Below are positions 27,388-63,113 of a stretch of 64,000 bases of DNA, piece by piece. The position numbers and the translations under genes are program-made. The stretch is taken from the NCBI GenBank assembly GCA_031835245.2, contig JAVKOQ020000018.1, forward strand, positions 1 to 64,000, written 5' to 3'. The notes below the pieces were generated by a model that was not told the DNA's origin, made no database searches, and was given only the letters and a program-made list of their open reading frames with translations. Position 1 is the stretch's first letter, and every line of letters starts with the position of its first letter. The DNA is from Balamuthia mandrillaris. Lineage: Eukaryota.

Positions 27388-27565
27388 ATAACTTCTCTCT
27401 CTCTCTCTCTCTCCCATGTGTAAAAGATAAGTAAGCTAAGACGTATCAGTTGCTCTTTTTGTTTGTTTTATATCATCACACCACCACCAATAATAGAATA
27501 TTTATTCTTCTCTTTACCACCATTTATAATATTTATTTATTATTTTTATTTATTAAATAGACATT

Positions 27566-29341
27566 ATGGCGGAGAGGAGAAAAAGAAAGGCAGGGGCCGA
27601 GGAAGAAGGCGACGACAACAAGAAGGCAGTTCGTCCTTTTAAGAAGCACCACCAGGAAACAACTGCCGCAGCAGTTCAGCACAAGGAGACGGGCAGAGGA
27701 GAATGGGACAACCGCTGGGCTGAACTTTTACCAGAAGAGTTATTGTGGCTAGTATTGGCAACACTTGAACGACAGTACTGGGCGATTGCGGCAATGACCT
27801 GTCACCGATGGTACGAAAGCGTTTCATACTTGAGCCGTCAAGTGCCAGTATGGAAGCGTCGTTGGGCAAGCGCAGCAAGTGTCTCGGTCTCTTTGTTGCG
27901 TTGGGCGAAAGCGGAAGGCTATCCCATCAAGGACCGTCGTATATGCAGCAATGCGGCCGTGCAAGGGAGGTTGGATGTGCTTCAAGTGGCACGGCTGGGG
28001 GAAGGTTCTGACTGGGATGAACATACCTGTAGCAACGCCGCGCTGAGTGGACATCAGGAAGTGCTACAATGGGCCAGAGCGAATGGATGTCCCTGGGATG
28101 AAAAAACGTGCAGCAGCGCGGCGCTTGCAGGCCACTTGGACGTATTGCAATGGGCCACAGCGAACGGGTGTGCTTGGGATGAAAAGACGTGCAGCAGTGC
28201 AGCCTATGGTGGCCATTTGGAGGTACTTCAGTGGGCCAGAGCAAAGGGGTGCCCCTGGGACGGGTGGACCTGCAGGAACGCACTCGCAGGAGGCCATTTG
28301 CAAGTATTGCAGTGGGCGACTGACCAGGGCTGCGAATGGTTCGAAGAGGACTGGTCTTCGCTATGTACCAGGGCAGCCTTTTTGGGCCATCTGCAGATGC
28401 TACAGTGGGCTAGAGAGCGAGGTTGTGAATGGAACGAGGATACTTGCGCTGCAGCCGCTGACAGAGGACAATTAGAAACGTTACAGTGGCTACACGCAAA
28501 CGGTTGTCCTTGGGATGAAAGAACCTGCACCAAAGCAGCCTTTTCTGGGCATTTTGCCCTGCTGCGTTGGGCTCGGGAACACGGCTGCCCCTGGAATGAA
28601 GATGTATGCTGCTACTCGGCCAATCGTTTGGAGATACTGCAATGGGCCAGAGCGAATGGTTGTCCCTGGGATGCAAGGACTTGCAAAACAGCCGCCGCAA
28701 CCAACTTCGAGGCCCTACAGTGGGCCCGTGAAAACGGGTGTGATTGGGATGAAGCCACTTGCAGTTCTGCTGCGTCCAGAGGAAACTTGAAAGCGTTACA
28801 ATGGGCTCGAGAGAACGGATGTCCTTGGAATGAAGGGGCTTGCAACGCAGCAGCGAGCGGCGGTCATTTAAAACTACTACAGTGGGCCAGGCAGCATGGT
28901 TGTCCTTGGAGTGAGAAGACGTGCAGCAGCGCAGCGTATGGTGGCCATTTGGAAGTACTTCAATGGCTCCGAGAGCACGGGTGTCCTTGGGACCACACCA
29001 CATGCTCAGAAGCAGCCGCTGGCGGCCACTTGGCCCTCTTACATTGGGCCAGAGAGAATGAATGCCCATGGACCGCCGATACGTGCACAAGAGCTGCCTC
29101 AAGAGGACATCTGGCGGTGTTGCAGTGGGCTCGACAAAATGGATGTGCGTGGAATGTTGAAACATGTGAAGCAGCCGCTTGGAGCTTACGTTTAGAGGTG
29201 CTGCAGTGGGTCATCAGACAAAAGGGGTGCCCCTGGAGCATCAACGACTGCATTCGCTGGGCAAAACGATGGAACTCTCAGAAGGTGTTGGAGTGGAGCA
29301 GGAAAGAAGCTAGCCCCTCCTCACACTGTAAATTGTTCTGA
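27566..29341 (+). CDS. Intronless F-box + ankyrin-like 'WARxxGCPW' repeat protein
   Basis: F-box-like LLPEELLWLVL..AMTCHRW followed by about 17-18 ~25-aa repeats of consensus TCSSAAxGGHLEVLQWARxNGCPWDE. Confidence 0.9.
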   Translation: MAERRKRKAGAEEEGDDNKKAVRPFKKHHQETTAAAVQHKETGRGEWDNRWAELLPEELLWLVLATLERQYWAIAAMTCHRWYESVSYLSRQVPVWKRRWASAASVSVSLLRWAKAEGYPIKDRRICSNAAVQGRLDVLQVARLGEGSDWDEHTCSNAALSGHQEVLQWARANGCPWDEKTCSSAALAGHLDVLQWATANGCAWDEKTCSSAAYGGHLEVLQWARAKGCPWDGWTCRNALAGGHLQVLQWATDQGCEWFEEDWSSLCTRAAFLGHLQMLQWARERGCEWNEDTCAAAADRGQLETLQWLHANGCPWDERTCTKAAFSGHFALLRWAREHGCPWNEDVCCYSANRLEILQWARANGCPWDARTCKTAAATNFEALQWARENGCDWDEATCSSAASRGNLKALQWARENGCPWNEGACNAAASGGHLKLLQWARQHGCPWSEKTCSSAAYGGHLEVLQWLREHGCPWDHTTCSEAAAGGHLALLHWARENECPWTADTCTRAASRGHLAVLQWARQNGCAWNVETCEAAAWSLRLEVLQWVIRQKGCPWSINDCIRWAKRWNSQKVLEWSRKEASPSSHCKLF

Positions 29342-40329: not shown

Positions 40330-40581
40330 CCCACAAAAAAAAAAACAAAACAAAAAGGGTTGTTTGCTCTCTTCTCTTCTCTGCTTTTATTTTTCTTTCC
40401 ATTAATTAAAGAGAGCACAAAATCTGCAGCATCAAACATGAATTTCTGCAGCATTTGTGATCTATCACTTCCACCTCATAGAATATATTCTCTAAGAGGT
40501 TGCATGGTGTCGAGACCCTAGCTTCACGTCGACGAGATACGTTTCTACGAAATCTTTACTAATAGGAATCACATTTCTACG

Positions 40582-41919
40582 ATGTTGCCCCACAGCCAGC
40601 CGAAACCTAAGAGCCAAAAAATGCAAAAAGAAAAAAGCAAAGATGAGAGAGACCTCAACAACAACAACCACGAAAGCGAAGGCTTACCGGTGTTGGACGT
40701 GAGGAGGGTTAGAACTGGGTCCTATCCTGAAGAAGAGGGTGGCGTCCTTTTGCTCAACAAGCCCATCGGCATGACGCCGCTTCAGCTGATCCAATCTTTC
40801 CGCGCTCGCTGTCGACAAAAATTAGCAGACGAAAGCGAAGAGACGGAACCAACGAAGCAGCAGAAGAAGCACGAACAAGAGCCAAAGATAGGCTATGCAG
40901 GACGGTTGGACCCTATGGCGAGGGGATTGATGGTGTGCTTGGTCGGTGAGGCCAACCGACGACAAAAGCAGCACGAGCTGCTCACCAAGGACTACCAGTT
41001 CGACGTTCTGTTCGGCCTTTCAACGGACACATTCGACGTGTTGGGCCTTGTCGATGCTTCCTCCGAAAGTTGGATGGTTCGAACGTCTCGTCGACGACAA
41101 CAACAACTTCTTCAACAAGCACAACGACAGAAAAGAAACCAAAGAGCAAAGAAAAAGAGACGTATTGATGATGGGGAACAAAAGCAAAAACCAACTGGAG
41201 AGGCTGAGGAGGAAGAAGAGGAAGAACGAGAAGACGAATCGGACATGTGGAAGGAGACACAGTTACTGTCGGAGGAACGGATACGAAACATGCTGCCTTT
41301 GTTCATCGGCGAACGGAATCAAAAGTATCCTCCGTTCAGCTCCGTTCGGGTGAAAGGCAAACCGCTTTTTCACTGGGCCAAAATGGGAAAGGAGAAGTTG
41401 GAAGAGATGAGCCCTTTCGTTCCTTCCGTGCGAGTTACCGTCATGGACTTGAAGCTCCTGGATTGTTATTGGCTCGATTTGGAGACGTTGCAACGGATCG
41501 TTAGAGAACGCATAGGGAGTGTAAAGAGTTCTTCTTCCTCTTCTTCAGAGGAAACGTTTCGACAAACAGAAATACTTCAATCATGGAATGACCAAATCTT
41601 CACTCCTTTGGAACACCTTTTGCCAGAAGAGGAGGAAGAATACGAGAAGGAAAGAGGAGAACATAACACAGCAGAAAGCAGAAGAACTAAGCATTGGAGT
41701 TGGCCTGTCTTCCGAATGAAAGCGACGGTAACATCGGGAACATACATACGTTCACTCGCTGATGAAATGGGAAGAGCTTTATCGTTTCCTGAGGAAGAGG
41801 GTGAAGAACGAAGCGGAGGAGTTGGGGCTATTGCGTTTGATATTTATAGGACTCGAGTGGGTCAACACAATATTGATGATGCCCTTTCTCCTCCTTTCTT
41901 TGATGCTCCTTCAAAATGA
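40582..41919 (+). CDS. TruB-family tRNA pseudouridine synthase, intronless
   Basis: LLNKPIGMT, GYAGRLDPMARG (catalytic D), KDYQF..FGLSTDTFD, QKYPPFSSVRVKGKPL, VTSGTYIRSLADEMG, RTRVG. Confidence 0.88.
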   Translation: MLPHSQPKPKSQKMQKEKSKDERDLNNNNHESEGLPVLDVRRVRTGSYPEEEGGVLLLNKPIGMTPLQLIQSFRARCRQKLADESEETEPTKQQKKHEQEPKIGYAGRLDPMARGLMVCLVGEANRRQKQHELLTKDYQFDVLFGLSTDTFDVLGLVDASSESWMVRTSRRRQQQLLQQAQRQKRNQRAKKKRRIDDGEQKQKPTGEAEEEEEEEREDESDMWKETQLLSEERIRNMLPLFIGERNQKYPPFSSVRVKGKPLFHWAKMGKEKLEEMSPFVPSVRVTVMDLKLLDCYWLDLETLQRIVRERIGSVKSSSSSSSEETFRQTEILQSWNDQIFTPLEHLLPEEEEEYEKERGEHNTAESRRTKHWSWPVFRMKATVTSGTYIRSLADEMGRALSFPEEEGEERSGGVGAIAFDIYRTRVGQHNIDDALSPPFFDAPSK

Positions 41920-54085: not shown

Positions 54086-54287
54086 AGTCTTATTATTATT
54101 ATTATTTAAAAACCCTTTCTCTCATTTATTTACCCAACAAACAGACTTCATTTATCGCCACCCCTTGCTTGCTCTTCTTCTTACAAACTATCCGAAGAGA
54201 AGTTTGTTGAAAAAAATAAATAAATATTTATTTAAAAAATAAATTAAAAAATAAATTTTAAAAAAACAAAATACTAAAAAAAGAATG

Positions 54288-54436
54288 TGGAGATTGTCGG
54301 ACTCGAACCGACGACCTTGAGCTTCAGGCTCTCACGCTCTTCCTAGCAAAGGAAAGGAGGGGTAGCGGCTCTCTCCGAGGAGAGAGTAACGATTGAACCC
54401 CCCGAAACCTATGTTATGCCACTGAGCTAAATCCCC
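54288..54436 (-). ncRNA. tRNA-like Pol III RNA (149 nt) with ~77-nt D-loop insertion; G3:U70 acceptor stem; non-canonical anticodon arm
   Basis: Acceptor GGGGATT/AATCTCC+A, D stem GCTC/GAGC, T arm GTCGG-TTCGAGT-CCGAC, variable loop AGGTC, A box TAGCTCAGTGG, B box GGTTCGAGTCC, T7 run just downstream. Confidence 0.85.
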
Positions 54437-54616
54437 TTGGTACAAACGGAGCGAAGTTGCCAGCTCCGACCGATATTTCCTTGGCAACCTCACCGACGAA
54501 ATTATTATATGAAGAGCAGAGAAACTTTTTGGCTCATCTTTCACTCAGCGATAATAACTCGCCAAAATCTATTGAAGATCTGCAAGTGCCAAAGCGAATG
54601 ACCTGCTCTGCGCTGC

Positions 54617-55813
54617 TCAACAAAAAGAGATGATGGGATAGTGCTTGTGCACCGAAAAGTCATATCGAAGGCTCTTTTTGCTGTTAGCGGCAGCTCCTTT
54701 TCCTTTGTTCGAGGGGGCAACGCTCTTTGCGAGTTGCTCCGCACTGGCGAGGTTTTCTTGGATCACTTTTTCGACGCTCCGCAACACCGAATAGGTTTTC
54801 TGTGAGAAGCTTTCTTCTTCCTTCTTTTTTGAATATGAAAAAAAAAGGTGAGAACAAGCTCAAATGTTAAATAGATAAGAACAAGTTACCTGAGATGACG
54901 AAGCGAAAGGATGAGTCCGAATGGCTTCTTCGATGCTCGCTTTGGCTTCCCGCAGGTTTTCTGTTGCGGTACCATAAATCTCTTCTACCTGCATCTATGA
55001 ATTAGTCTACTCATCGCATCTCTGAAAGTAAAAACATAGAAAGAAAGCGAGAGAGAGAGAGAGAGAGAGAGAGAAGAACAAAAGCTTGAGCAAGACGAGC
55101 AGGGAAACGAACCTTAAAAGTGGAGTAATTGGTAGTAGAGCGGAAGTGAGTGGGATGCAATGGCTGCGGCTGTGGCAAGCGATGAAAGACAGAGAAGCGA
55201 TTGAAGAAGCGGCTTTCCATGCTGCCGTATGGGGTTGGGTCGTACGATGGATCTTGGCCCAATTCCATGTTCGCTCCAATTATCATCTGATGACACAAAG
55301 CAAAGGGAGAGAGAGAGAGAGAGAAGAGAAGAGAGGTTAAGAAATGAGACATTCAAGCAGGAAAAAGAAAATAAAAGGAAAAGAACGATGAGAATGAAAC
55401 AGTAAAGAAAGGAACAAAGGAATAAACACGAGAAGATTAAAGGAATAGAAATACTGACCCTAAACAAACCGGAACAAAGTTTGCGTTGAGCATAGATAAA
55501 ATATTGATAATGTTCCATGGGCGGAATTTTAATATCGGGCGTAGAGGAGTCCGTTACCGTCGTGGATGTCGTTTGTTGGGATGCACCACGCTTGCTTCCT
55601 CGTCCACCGCCTCCTTTCCTCTTTCCTCTTCCTCCACCAACGCTGCCGCTGCCTGTCGTTGCTCCTCCTGTCTTGTTTCTCAAGTGCACTTTTTGTTGTG
55701 TATTACAAAAGATCGAGAAATACAAACGGCAACATAAATAATGACAATTCCAAGAGAGACAAATACAGGATAGTGAACGAGGGAGCAAGAGGGCGAGGGC
55801 CAGAGAGAGAGAG

Positions 55814-62474: not shown

Positions 62475-62876
62475 TCAGTTGACGTTCCAGCGATTGCCAC
62501 ATGCCATGCAGCGATAGAAGATGGTGCTCGGCTCGTCGGCCGATCGCGTTTGCATCTGGAAAAAGTTTGCTCTCGTGTGCGAACATTTCGGACATTTTGC
62601 TGTTTTCATCCACACAAAGTAAGGCCGAGACAGTGTCAGTGAAAGAGTAGAAAGAAGCAAAGAAGCAAAGTGTAAACCTTCTGTTTGCGGAGCGTTCTCA
62701 AAGATCTCATCGCCCATGATGTGATCCACTTCCTTCCGCACCAAAGGCATCTTCTTGCTGATGCTTTGCTCGATGTTGAATATGTAGGGGCACGTTTGGC
62801 AGTAAAACCGTAGCCTGTTGCCCGGCCCGTTTTCCACCAGCAACAGGTTCGCGCACGTTGGGCAAAACAACACCAT
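62475..62876 (-). CDS. RPC11: RNA polymerase III subunit C11 (RPC11/POLR3K), one intron (~62600-62678)
   Basis: FCPTCANLL, CQTCPY, CPKC..QMQTRSADEPSTIFYRCMACGNRW. Confidence 0.95.
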   Translation of the reverse strand: MVLFCPTCANLLLVENGPGNRLRFYCQTCPYIFNIEQSISKKMPLVRKEVDHIMGDEIFENAPQTEGLHFASLLLSTLSLTLSRPYFVWMKTAKCPKCSHTRANFFQMQTRSADEPSTIFYRCMACGNRWNVN

Positions 62877-63113
62877 CTTTCTTTACTCTTTCTCCCTCGG
62901 TTATCTTGTTACACATTTTCCCGTGTCGACCTGACGAATACCATGTCGACACGGTTATTAAGCTTTTTACTCAAAGGAAACAGAAGGAGACATTCAGCTA
63001 CAAAAAAATGTCTATCTTTGCAGCTGCTTTTGCTTGAAGCCATTCGTTCTTTGTTTATTTACACATTGAAAAGGAGAGAGAGAGGAGAGAGAGAGAAGAG
63101 AGAGGAGAGAGAG

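What the first reader, a model, noticed from the sequence alone, without database searches (positions are those of the whole stretch)
54288..54436. tRNA-shaped RNA with Ala identity pair, a 77-nt hairpin in the D loop and a shifted Phe-like anticodon arm
Seen: acceptor, D and T stems pair fully, and A box, B box and terminator are intact, so it does not look decayed. G3:U70 and A73 are present, the known AlaRS identity elements. The insert (54418-54342) folds as a long irregular hairpin (GGCA/TGCT, AGG/CCT, GGGGGGT/ACCCCTC, CTCTCTC-CTCG-GAGAGAG). The anticodon arm TGAGA-GCCTGAA-GCTCA has an A-G mismatch, lacks U33 and places CTG at 34-36; it resembles tRNA-Phe CTGAAG shifted by 2 nt. Known: eukaryotic tRNA introns are normally at 37/38, with D-loop introns in archaea and some red algae. 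Inference: a non-canonical intron-containing or edited tRNA, an aminoacylatable tRNA-mimic ncRNA, or a tRNA-derived SINE head.
Basis: partly seen in the sequence, partly recalled or inferred. Interest (0 to 1): 0.75.

Follow-up and report, generated by a model that had tools for sequence, protein, structure and literature searches.

The report
Amoeba tRNA mimic with extra arm
In the amoeba Balamuthia, a transcribed tRNA-shaped gene keeps an alanine-type acceptor end but has a defective anticodon arm and a long extra hairpin that stays in the sequenced RNA, and its first 111 bases appear joined end-to-start in reads, so it is likely a non-decoding RNA that is probably cut and closed into a small circle.

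Summary
The element is real (Rfam tRNA, 42.5 bits) and lies in Balamuthia mandrillaris (neighbouring protein 99% identical). New from public reads: (1) It is transcribed on its own: depth about 22 against 1-2 on the neighbouring exon in one RNA run; the second run gave only 2 reads on it. (2) The hairpin is retained: 22 reads cover it, none skips it. (3) Two haplotypes differ at 0 of 72 tRNA-body positions, 5 of 77 hairpin positions (fold kept) and 21 of 180 upstream positions (p=0.0008). (4) Seven reads from five starts join the anticodon loop back to G1: a candidate 111-nt circle, not the excised insert. (5) One sister locus exists. The anticodon arm cannot form a normal decoding loop, and CAG is read as Gln at 3 of 3 conserved sites. 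Best reading: a selected, non-decoding tRNA-Ala-type RNA with an extra arm at D-loop position 16/17, likely nicked in the anticodon loop and likely circularised. Intron and SINE readings are weakened, not excluded. Charging, the circle in cells and function are untested; the junction rests on one library.

The parts
54288..54436 (-). tRNA-shaped gene, G1 (54436) to A73 (54288), 149 nt
   Evidence: Rfam RF00005 42.5 bits; fold; RNA reads
54430..54436 (-). acceptor stem 5' strand; G3 at 54434
   Evidence: sequence and fold, pair probabilities 0.67-1.0
54288..54295 (-). acceptor stem 3' strand and discriminator A73; U70 at 54291
   Evidence: sequence and fold
54419..54429 (-). A box (polymerase III internal promoter), with the D stem 5' strand 54427-54424
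   Evidence: sequence; consensus recalled
54344..54421 (-). extra hairpin arm (RNA 16-93, 78 nt) rising from D-loop position 16/17; retained in the RNA; variable between haplotypes with the fold kept
   Evidence: folds; reads and haplotype differences
54336..54343 (-). likely G18-G19 (54343-54342), rest of the D loop and D stem 3' strand (54339-54336)
   Evidence: fold; numbering inferred
54318..54334 (-). defective anticodon arm: A.G mismatch, G32, C33; preferred fold is a 4-bp hairpin with a 5-nt loop
   Evidence: unchanged between haplotypes
54326..54436 (-). 111-nt 5' piece (G1 to U111) whose ends are joined in RNA reads; candidate circle (junction ambiguous by 1 nt)
   Evidence: joint 54435 to 54325, 7 reads, 5 starts, run X17 only
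54296..54312 (-). T arm with B box (54309-54299)
   Evidence: sequence and fold, pair probabilities 0.96-0.97
54276..54282 (-). run of 7 T, polymerase III terminator; the 5-nt trailer before it is shared with the sister locus
   Evidence: sequence; X3 record 3
54617..54824 (-). context: last exon of Mak10/NAA35, stop 180 nt upstream of G1 on the same strand

Best explanation
This is a transcribed tRNA-shaped RNA that keeps its extra D-loop hairpin and is likely a selected, non-decoding RNA: its intact acceptor, D and T core would serve as a polymerase III promoter and processing scaffold (and is predicted to accept alanine), while its defective anticodon loop is likely cut after U111, releasing a 111-nt rod-shaped 5' piece that is probably closed into a circle. 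Shown: own transcript, retained hairpin, 5' boundary at G1, loss of coverage at the anticodon loop, the back-joint in reads, invariant body and fold-keeping hairpin changes. Inferred: polymerase III transcription; RNase P making the G1 end; an L-shaped core with the arm leaving at positions 16/17; an endonuclease cut in the 5-nt loop; refolding that brings G1-G4 next to C109-U111; sealing by a ligase that can use a 5'-phosphate (Trl1/Rnl type; RtcB could not, by established chemistry). The hairpin arm would be the working surface, most likely a protein-binding stem whose shape matters more than its letters; no partner is identified. My odds: selected non-decoding RNA about 0.65; given that, circle made in cells about 0.5.
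For:: in RNA run X17, depth about 22 over 54328-54417 against 1-2 on the Mak10 exon and 0 over 54454-54561; 22 of 26 laid reads cover the arm and no joint skips it; at most 8 read-bases lie at or beyond 54436, so no leader is seen; depth falls to about 4 past 54325; joint 54435 to 54325 in 7 reads from 5 starts with up to 67 letters on the shorter side, not listed in DNA run X3, which carries the same two arm variants; no pile of read ends is listed at either boundary; both arm variants are transcribed (12 reads of the variant, 10 of the window form at the variable sites). One junction is used although longer G runs (RNA 34-39 and five GG pairs) would offer better template-switch sites. Conservation: 0 of 72 body positions against 21 of 180 upstream, Fisher p=0.0008. 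The second arm variant keeps 25 of 28 pairs and is more stable; 16 of 2000 random variants with the same number of changes do both (80 of 2000 when the 3-nt insertion is held as observed). The 5' piece folds as an unbranched rod with its ends adjacent. G3.U70 is enough for alanine charging across eukaryotes tested (PMC9976931, passages). A 113-nt tRNA-derived circle is seen in ordinary RNA-seq through such reads (PMC4536317, passages); 5' halves can be closed head-to-tail by PNK and Rnl1 in vitro (PMC9942843, passage, the authors' speculation).
Against: The junction comes from one library, 7 reads that may be as few as 3 fragments; run X16 gave 2 reads on the arm and no junction; only 3-5% of each of 2 of the 3 listed RNA runs was read. 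A linear 5' piece with adjacent ends could give the same junction by reverse-transcriptase switching. Reads fall in both mate directions, so the strand is not shown. A 72-nt spliced, modified tRNA would be poorly captured, so 'no skipping read' is biased. The arm is not significantly more conserved than the flank (5 of 77 against 21 of 180, p=0.26), body against arm p=0.06, body against coding exon p=0.58; no two-sided compensatory change is seen and one pair is broken. The 17-nt anticodon arm alone being unchanged has chance 0.12. Phasing of arm and flank variants rests on matching contig depths. The 5' piece is no more stable than its shuffles (67 and 31 of 200). No homolog outside the species was found.
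Confidence: 0.55

Rival explanations
1. A retired tRNA gene or low-copy tRNA-derived retrocopy. It is still transcribed because its A and B boxes survive; the defective RNA is nicked by surveillance nucleases and the junction is a by-product or a library artefact.
For: Anticodon arm broken. The sister locus shares the element exactly from G1 to the T run with unrelated flanks and sits on an unbranched 948-nt contig at single-haplotype depth, as a copied unit would. The host has 427-560 annotated tRNA genes (PMC10471605, Table 2 passage) or 681 (bioRxiv 10.1101/2025.02.25.640156, passage), so spare copies are plausible. No homolog found elsewhere.
Against: Body unchanged between haplotypes whose flanks differ by about 12% plus indels (p=0.0008), while the arm in the middle does differ, which simple allele conversion would not give; arm changes keep the fold; both variants are transcribed; only one other locus was laid at 80% likeness from a 62-million-letter DNA run; no flush target-site repeat in the sequence.
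Confidence: 0.22
2. A pre-tRNA with a non-canonical D-loop intron. The splicing endonuclease would remove 74-77 nt, giving a short alanine-charged tRNA that either reads CAG weakly (low-level Gln-to-Ala) or donates alanine outside the ribosome; the reads seen would be precursor and by-products.
For: In-silico removal gives an ARAGORN tRNA call in 59 of 63 cut pairs, as Gln(CTG) or Ser(TGA). The variable-insert, invariant-body pattern is also what an intron shows. A relaxed motif exists for cuts after RNA 21 and 95: 4-bp central helix with 3-nt bulges. Junctions at D-loop position 20/21 are processed in the red alga C. merolae (PMC3978253, passages). Mature tRNA is poorly seen in such libraries.
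Against: 0 of 22 arm-covering reads skip the insert and no insert-sized back-joint is listed, while a 111-nt one is. The relaxed motif has no outer helix and a broken inner helix, and would give a 10-nt D loop. The arm-bearing RNA already starts at G1, whereas D-arm introns are expected to go before end-processing in C. merolae (PMC3978253 section 6). The product would still lack U33 and the 31-39 pair. CAG sits at conserved Gln in 3 of 3 sites checked against homologs, so there is no wholesale reassignment.
Confidence: 0.15
3. A tmRNA-like rescue RNA: alanine-charged tRNA-like domain plus an internal reading frame in the arm.
For: G3.U70, A73 and T arm intact, decoding lost; two of three frames through the arm are open for about 28 codons in both haplotypes, and the one indel is 3 nt.
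Against: All haplotype substitutions change the peptide in both open frames; the arm is base-paired throughout; D stem and anticodon stem are present, unlike tmRNA (recalled); ARAGORN finds no tmRNA; open frames of this length are common by chance.
Confidence: 0.03

Closest known systems
Cytosolic tRNA-Ala (G3.U70 identity)
   Same: G3.U70, A73, full acceptor, D and T stems, A and B boxes, T-run terminator.
   Different: No Ala anticodon, no U33, no 31-39 pair; a 78-nt arm in the D loop that is retained in the reads.
tRNAs with non-canonical (D-loop) introns or junctions of Cyanidioschyzon merolae and archaea (PMC3978253, passages and section 6)
   Same: Extra sequence inside the D loop, base-paired next to its ends.
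   Different: Only a relaxed bulge-helix-bulge; no spliced read; no insert circle; removal would not give a sound anticodon arm.
tricRNAs, e.g. Drosophila tric31905, 113 nt (PMC4536317, passages)
   Same: A roughly 110-nt structured piece of a tRNA transcript seen through end-to-start junction reads.
   Different: Here the joined piece is the 5' part of the tRNA body (G1 to the anticodon loop), not an intron; its ends form no bulge-helix-bulge, and a 5'-phosphate end would need another ligase than RtcB.
5' tRNA halves / nicked tRNAs (PMC9942843, passages)
   Same: Cut in the anticodon loop giving a 5' piece; head-to-tail closing of 5' halves was proposed after ligase treatment in vitro.
   Different: The piece is 111 nt, carries its own long hairpin, and dominates the reads from this gene; the parent cannot decode normally.
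Circularly permuted tRNA genes of algae (PMC3978253)
   Same: A circular RNA from a tRNA locus.
   Different: Gene order is normal and the circle lacks the T arm and acceptor 3' strand, so it cannot mature into a tRNA.
tRNA-like non-coding RNAs (menRNA in PMC10275265, passage; tmRNA, mascRNA, rodent BC1/ID, bacterial Y RNAs: recalled, no call)
   Same: A tRNA fold or tRNA-Ala ancestry used for processing, stability or binding rather than decoding.
   Different: None that I read or recall keeps a full cloverleaf with a long arm added at D-loop 16/17 in a eukaryotic nucleus; no Rfam family other than tRNA matches.

Membership tests
canonical decoding tRNA | 7-bp acceptor stem, D stem, 5-bp T stem with 7-nt T loop | tested here: met
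canonical decoding tRNA | 5-bp anticodon stem with 7-nt loop, pyrimidine 32 and U33 | tested here: not met
   A.G at 31-39, G32, C33; preferred fold is 4 bp with a 5-nt loop
tRNA-Ala identity | G3.U70 pair and A73 | tested here: met
   sequence; identity rule from PMC9976931 passages
tRNA-Ala identity | alanine anticodon (NGC) | tested here: not met
   ARAGORN reads CTG or TGA after in-silico removal of the insert
tRNA-Ala identity | CCA addition and charging with alanine | not testable with these tools
   reads do not reach the 3' end (about 2 read-bases in 54274-54291)
tRNA with non-canonical intron | bulge-helix-bulge at the junction | tested here: inconclusive
   three cut pairs have a 4-bp central helix; none has full inner and outer helices
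tRNA with non-canonical intron | spliced product or excised intron detected | tested here: inconclusive
   0 of 22 arm-covering reads skip it and no insert-sized back-joint; library biased against short tRNA
tRNA with non-canonical intron | splicing restores a working tRNA | tested here: not met
   anticodon arm stays defective
tricRNA | end-to-start junction reads in RNA, absent from DNA | tested here: met
   7 reads, 5 starts in X17; none listed in X16, X3, X14
tricRNA | circle is an intron bounded by a bulge-helix-bulge | tested here: not met
   1 of 4 central pairs in either register; the piece holds the tRNA's own 5' part
circularly permuted tRNA | 3' half encoded before 5' half; circle holds the whole tRNA | tested here: not met
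   normal order; circle lacks T arm and acceptor 3' strand
tRNA-derived SINE | many dispersed copies | tested here: not met
   one other locus among 8 laid X3 records at 80% likeness, none in the window; the tool filters some records, so this is a lower bound
tRNA-derived SINE | target-site duplication and simple-repeat tail | tested here: not met
   no flush direct repeat by eye; ends in a T-run terminator
tRNA-derived SINE | neutral divergence of the body | tested here: not met
   0 of 72 against 21 of 180, p=0.0008
tmRNA | conserved internal tag reading frame | tested here: not met
   all haplotype changes alter the peptide in both open frames; ARAGORN finds no tmRNA

The most novel reading that the evidence does not exclude
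A tRNA gene has been turned into a dedicated circular-RNA generator: the tRNA core supplies promoter and RNase P cut, the rebuilt anticodon loop is a programmed nick site, and the refolded 5' piece is sealed in the cell into a 111-114-nt rod-like circle carrying the hairpin. This would be a route to circular RNA that uses neither the spliceosome nor a tRNA intron, with at least two family members in Balamuthia.
Probability: 0.25. Interest if true: 0.8.

Novelty: new variant of a known kind. Interest (0 to 1): 0.62.

Why it matters
It shows a nuclear tRNA body kept under selection after losing decoding, with a long arm tolerated at D-loop 16/17, a class that tRNA finders miss or mislabel (ARAGORN: no call, or a wrong Pro call with an intron). 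If the circle is made in cells, it adds a new way of making small circular RNAs and points to a 5'-phosphate-using RNA ligase in an amoebozoan. If the RNA is charged with alanine, it would be a eukaryotic alanine-carrying tRNA mimic with a role outside decoding. Amoebozoan non-coding RNAs are little explored; my ten literature searches turned up no description of this RNA, though most subscription papers are not in the library.

Tried and rejected
No whole genome was held, so copy number rests on laid contigs. Homolog searches: metagenome contigs with a close anticodon-arm pattern, 0 hits; with a loose D-loop-insert pattern, 4 hits, 4 of 4 false (tandem or partly duplicated bacterial tRNA genes); viral contigs, three patterns, 0 hits; prokaryote genomes, 0 hits. 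These collections hold few amoebae, so the blanks say little. The soil run X14 matched the T-arm region at 32 of 38 letters and runs on into what looks like a bacterial tRNA-Ala (identification recalled); it is not a homolog. No listed holder run was on record as RNA; the RNA runs laid came by species label. Rejected readings: ARAGORN's tRNA-Pro with a 102-nt intron over 54480-54287, because that upstream stretch carries many indels in the other haplotype; the circle as an intron of a larger tRNA (no bulge-helix-bulge); a spliceosomal GT..AG intron inside the arm at 54408-54343 (no such joint); read-through from Mak10 (depth 22 against 1-2, gap at 0); wholesale CAG-to-Ala recoding; snoRNA, SRP or other Rfam families (next hits E 0.37 or worse, far below gathering). 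Three look-ups of earlier findings returned nothing. An RPC11 protein search did not name the host; the Mak10 search did. The bacterial promoter/terminator scan is not informative for this eukaryote. The single supplement of PMC10471605 was listed but not read; supplements of the bioRxiv preprint were not seen and may hold tRNA or ncRNA annotations that bear on novelty.

Full report
Observation. The element is at 54436-54288 on the - strand, 149 nt. Rfam's tRNA model scores it 42.5 bits against a gathering score of 29, with a long insertion in the D loop; it is the only gathering-level RNA hit in the window, and other families reach at best E 0.37. Plain ARAGORN finds nothing. G3.U70 and A73, A box, B box and a 7-T run are in the sequence. 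The fold alone is only modestly better than shuffles (13 of 200 for the whole RNA; 12 of 300 for the arm). I place the arm at RNA 16-93 (54421-54344), because the first GG pairs in the basal helix; the second GG would then be G18-G19 and the arm would leave from positions 16/17, which face solvent in tRNA (established knowledge), so an L-shaped core could form without splicing (inference).

Host and context. The window is intron-rich eukaryotic DNA. The neighbouring Mak10/NAA35 exon is 99% identical to the Balamuthia mandrillaris protein, and that protein maps exon by exon to the window, ending 180 nt upstream of G1 on the same strand. An F-box/WD40 gene ends on the other side. The species has 427-560 annotated tRNA genes (PMC10471605, passages) or 681 (bioRxiv 10.1101/2025.02.25.640156, passages). 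No whole genome was on hand.

Anticodon arm. With the insert removed in silico ARAGORN calls a tRNA in 59 of 63 cut pairs, as Gln(CTG) or Ser(TGA); its drawing has A.G at 31-39, G32 and C33. The arm's preferred fold is a 4-bp hairpin with a 5-nt loop (-4.7 kcal/mol against -1.0 for the long-loop form). It is unlikely to decode well. CAG codons stand at conserved Gln at 3 of 3 sites compared with homologs: RPC11 residue 109 (Gln in 45 of 63) and two phosphorylase sites aligned to Gln in E. coli maltodextrin phosphorylase; so CAG is not reassigned to Ala, though rare misreading is not excluded.

Transcription. Of 19 listed runs I laid 4 on 54274-54800 at 80% likeness: RNA runs X16 and X17 (about 3% and 5% read), DNA run X3 and soil run X14. 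In X17, 26 reads were laid; depth is about 22 over 54328-54417, 1-2 on the Mak10 exon, and 0 over 54454-54561, so this is a transcript of its own. At most 8 read-bases lie at or beyond 54436: no leader is seen. No joint skips the insert. X16 gave 4 reads, 2 on the arm. Reads lie in both mate directions, so the strand is not shown. Sequence downstream of 54274 was not covered, so read-through past the terminator is open.

The back-joint. In X17 depth falls to about 4 past 54325, and 7 reads from 5 starts (at least 3 fragments) run from 54435 back to 54325, with up to 67 letters on the shorter side and one letter of ambiguity. The natural reading is G1 joined to U111, in the anticodon loop. It is not listed in X16, X3 or X14; X3 carries the same two arm variants as X17, which makes a DNA duplication unlikely but does not exclude it. 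No pile of read ends is listed at either boundary. The piece folds as an unbranched rod with its ends adjacent, linear or circular, though no more stably than shuffles. Its ends form no bulge-helix-bulge, so it is not a tRNA intron circle. A 113-nt tricRNA is detected in ordinary RNA-seq by just such reads (PMC4536317, passages). A reverse-transcriptase switch on a linear piece with adjacent ends is the alternative; either way a defined end in the anticodon loop is implied, since longer G runs are not used.

Selection. X3 holds two versions whose depths add up (44.7 and 36.6 in the arm, 80 in the shared 3' part). The variant differs from the window at 5 positions and one 3-nt insertion, all inside the arm, at 0 of 72 body positions, at 21 of 180 upstream non-coding positions plus many indels, and at 4 of 184 coding positions (I left out position 54512, which belongs to the other record). 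Body against flank p=0.0008; arm against flank p=0.26; body against arm p=0.06; body against coding p=0.58. Substitution counts beside gaps may be inflated and phasing rests on depth. The variant arm keeps 25 of 28 pairs and is more stable (-35.7 against -31.5 kcal/mol); of 2000 random variants 123 are as stable, 86 keep as many pairs and 16 do both; with the insertion held as observed 247, 246 and 80. One change swaps G.U for G-C, two add pairs, one breaks a pair, one shifts a 2-bp helix, and the insertion lengthens the top hairpin; none is two-sided. Both versions are transcribed.

Family. X3 holds one more locus sharing RNA 1-20 and 114-149 plus trailer, with unrelated flanks and an unread middle; 2 RNA reads show it. 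It may be a sister with another arm or the ordinary parent tRNA. No relative was found in metagenome, viral or prokaryote collections (the 4 hits were false); these hold few amoebae.

Intron test. Among cut pairs giving a 7-11-nt D loop, three have a 4-bp central helix; the best (after RNA 21 and 95) has a broken inner helix, no outer helix and a 10-nt D loop. D-loop junctions are processed in C. merolae and are expected to be cleared before end-processing (PMC3978253, passages and section 6), whereas here the arm-bearing RNA begins at G1. With no skipping read and no insert-sized circle, the intron reading drops to about 0.15; short mature tRNA is under-sampled in such libraries, so it stays open.

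Mechanism. Shown: transcript, retained arm, G1 boundary, coverage loss at the anticodon loop, back-joint, conserved body. Inferred: polymerase III transcription from the A and B boxes; RNase P at G1; alanine charging through G3.U70 (PMC9976931, passages); a nick after U111; refolding and sealing by a 5'-phosphate ligase (RtcB needs a 5'-OH: PMC9942843, passage); the arm as a shape-constrained binding surface. Confidence 0.55; relic or retrocopy 0.22; intron 0.15; tmRNA-like 0.03 (all changes alter both open frames).

Novelty. It works like other tRNA-derived non-coding RNAs but fails membership of decoding tRNAs, tricRNAs, permuted tRNAs, SINEs and tmRNA on tested features. Ten literature searches (listings and abstract starts) showed no account of it; 12 of 28 passages of a review of non-canonical tRNA structures (PMC7609411) and 3 passages of PMC10275265 showed no long D-loop arm. 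Earlier scan notes held nothing. Verdict: new variant of a known kind, interest 0.62; a dedicated circle-making tRNA scaffold has probability about 0.25 and would deserve 0.8.

Noticed in passing
run X3, record 3 (948-nt contig; matches window 54276-54323 and 54417-54436): Sister locus: shares RNA 1-20 and RNA 114-149 plus trailer (1 difference in 48 letters), unrelated flanks, middle not readable; contig depth 44, about one haplotype; 2 RNA reads in X17 show the same joint.
   Followed up: partly
window 54437-54616: The two haplotypes in run X3 differ strongly in this non-coding stretch (21 substitutions in 180 nt plus many indels) against 4 in 184 nt of the adjacent exon: high heterozygosity or old duplicate copies.
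   Followed up: partly
window 54453-54491 (-): A 10-nt inverted repeat (54491-54482 with 54462-54453) upstream of the gene; seven letters of its 3' arm also occur 24-30 nt upstream of the sister locus (loose end). Could be an upstream promoter element or chance (a 9-letter version occurs twice in the window, 0.9 expected).
   Followed up: partly
window 54343-54408 (-): The arm holds a GT...pyrimidine tract...AG stretch like a short spliceosomal intron; no read shows it spliced.
   Followed up: yes
window 54326-54436 (-): The candidate circle is 111 nt in one haplotype and 114 nt in the other, both multiples of three, but all three frames hold stops (read from the sequence).
   Followed up: yes
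window 27557-29341 (+): Single long reading frame (594 aa) with an F-box and many ankyrin-like repeats; resembles repeat proteins of amoebal giant viruses (recalled, not tested).
   Followed up: no
window 40522-41919 (+): Single long reading frame for a TruB-family pseudouridine synthase in an otherwise intron-rich region.
   Followed up: no
window 62475-62882 (-): RNA polymerase III subunit RPC11/RPC10 gene; best database relative found only 55% identical over most of its length.
   Followed up: partly
L001 and L003, 47-1158 (-): Dense bacterial-type tRNA array with three adjacent Ala genes (TGC, CGC, GGC).
   Followed up: no
L002 501-635 (+); L004 501-649 (+): Partly duplicated tRNA-Ala genes, like integration-site remnants; false hits to my pattern.
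   Followed up: no
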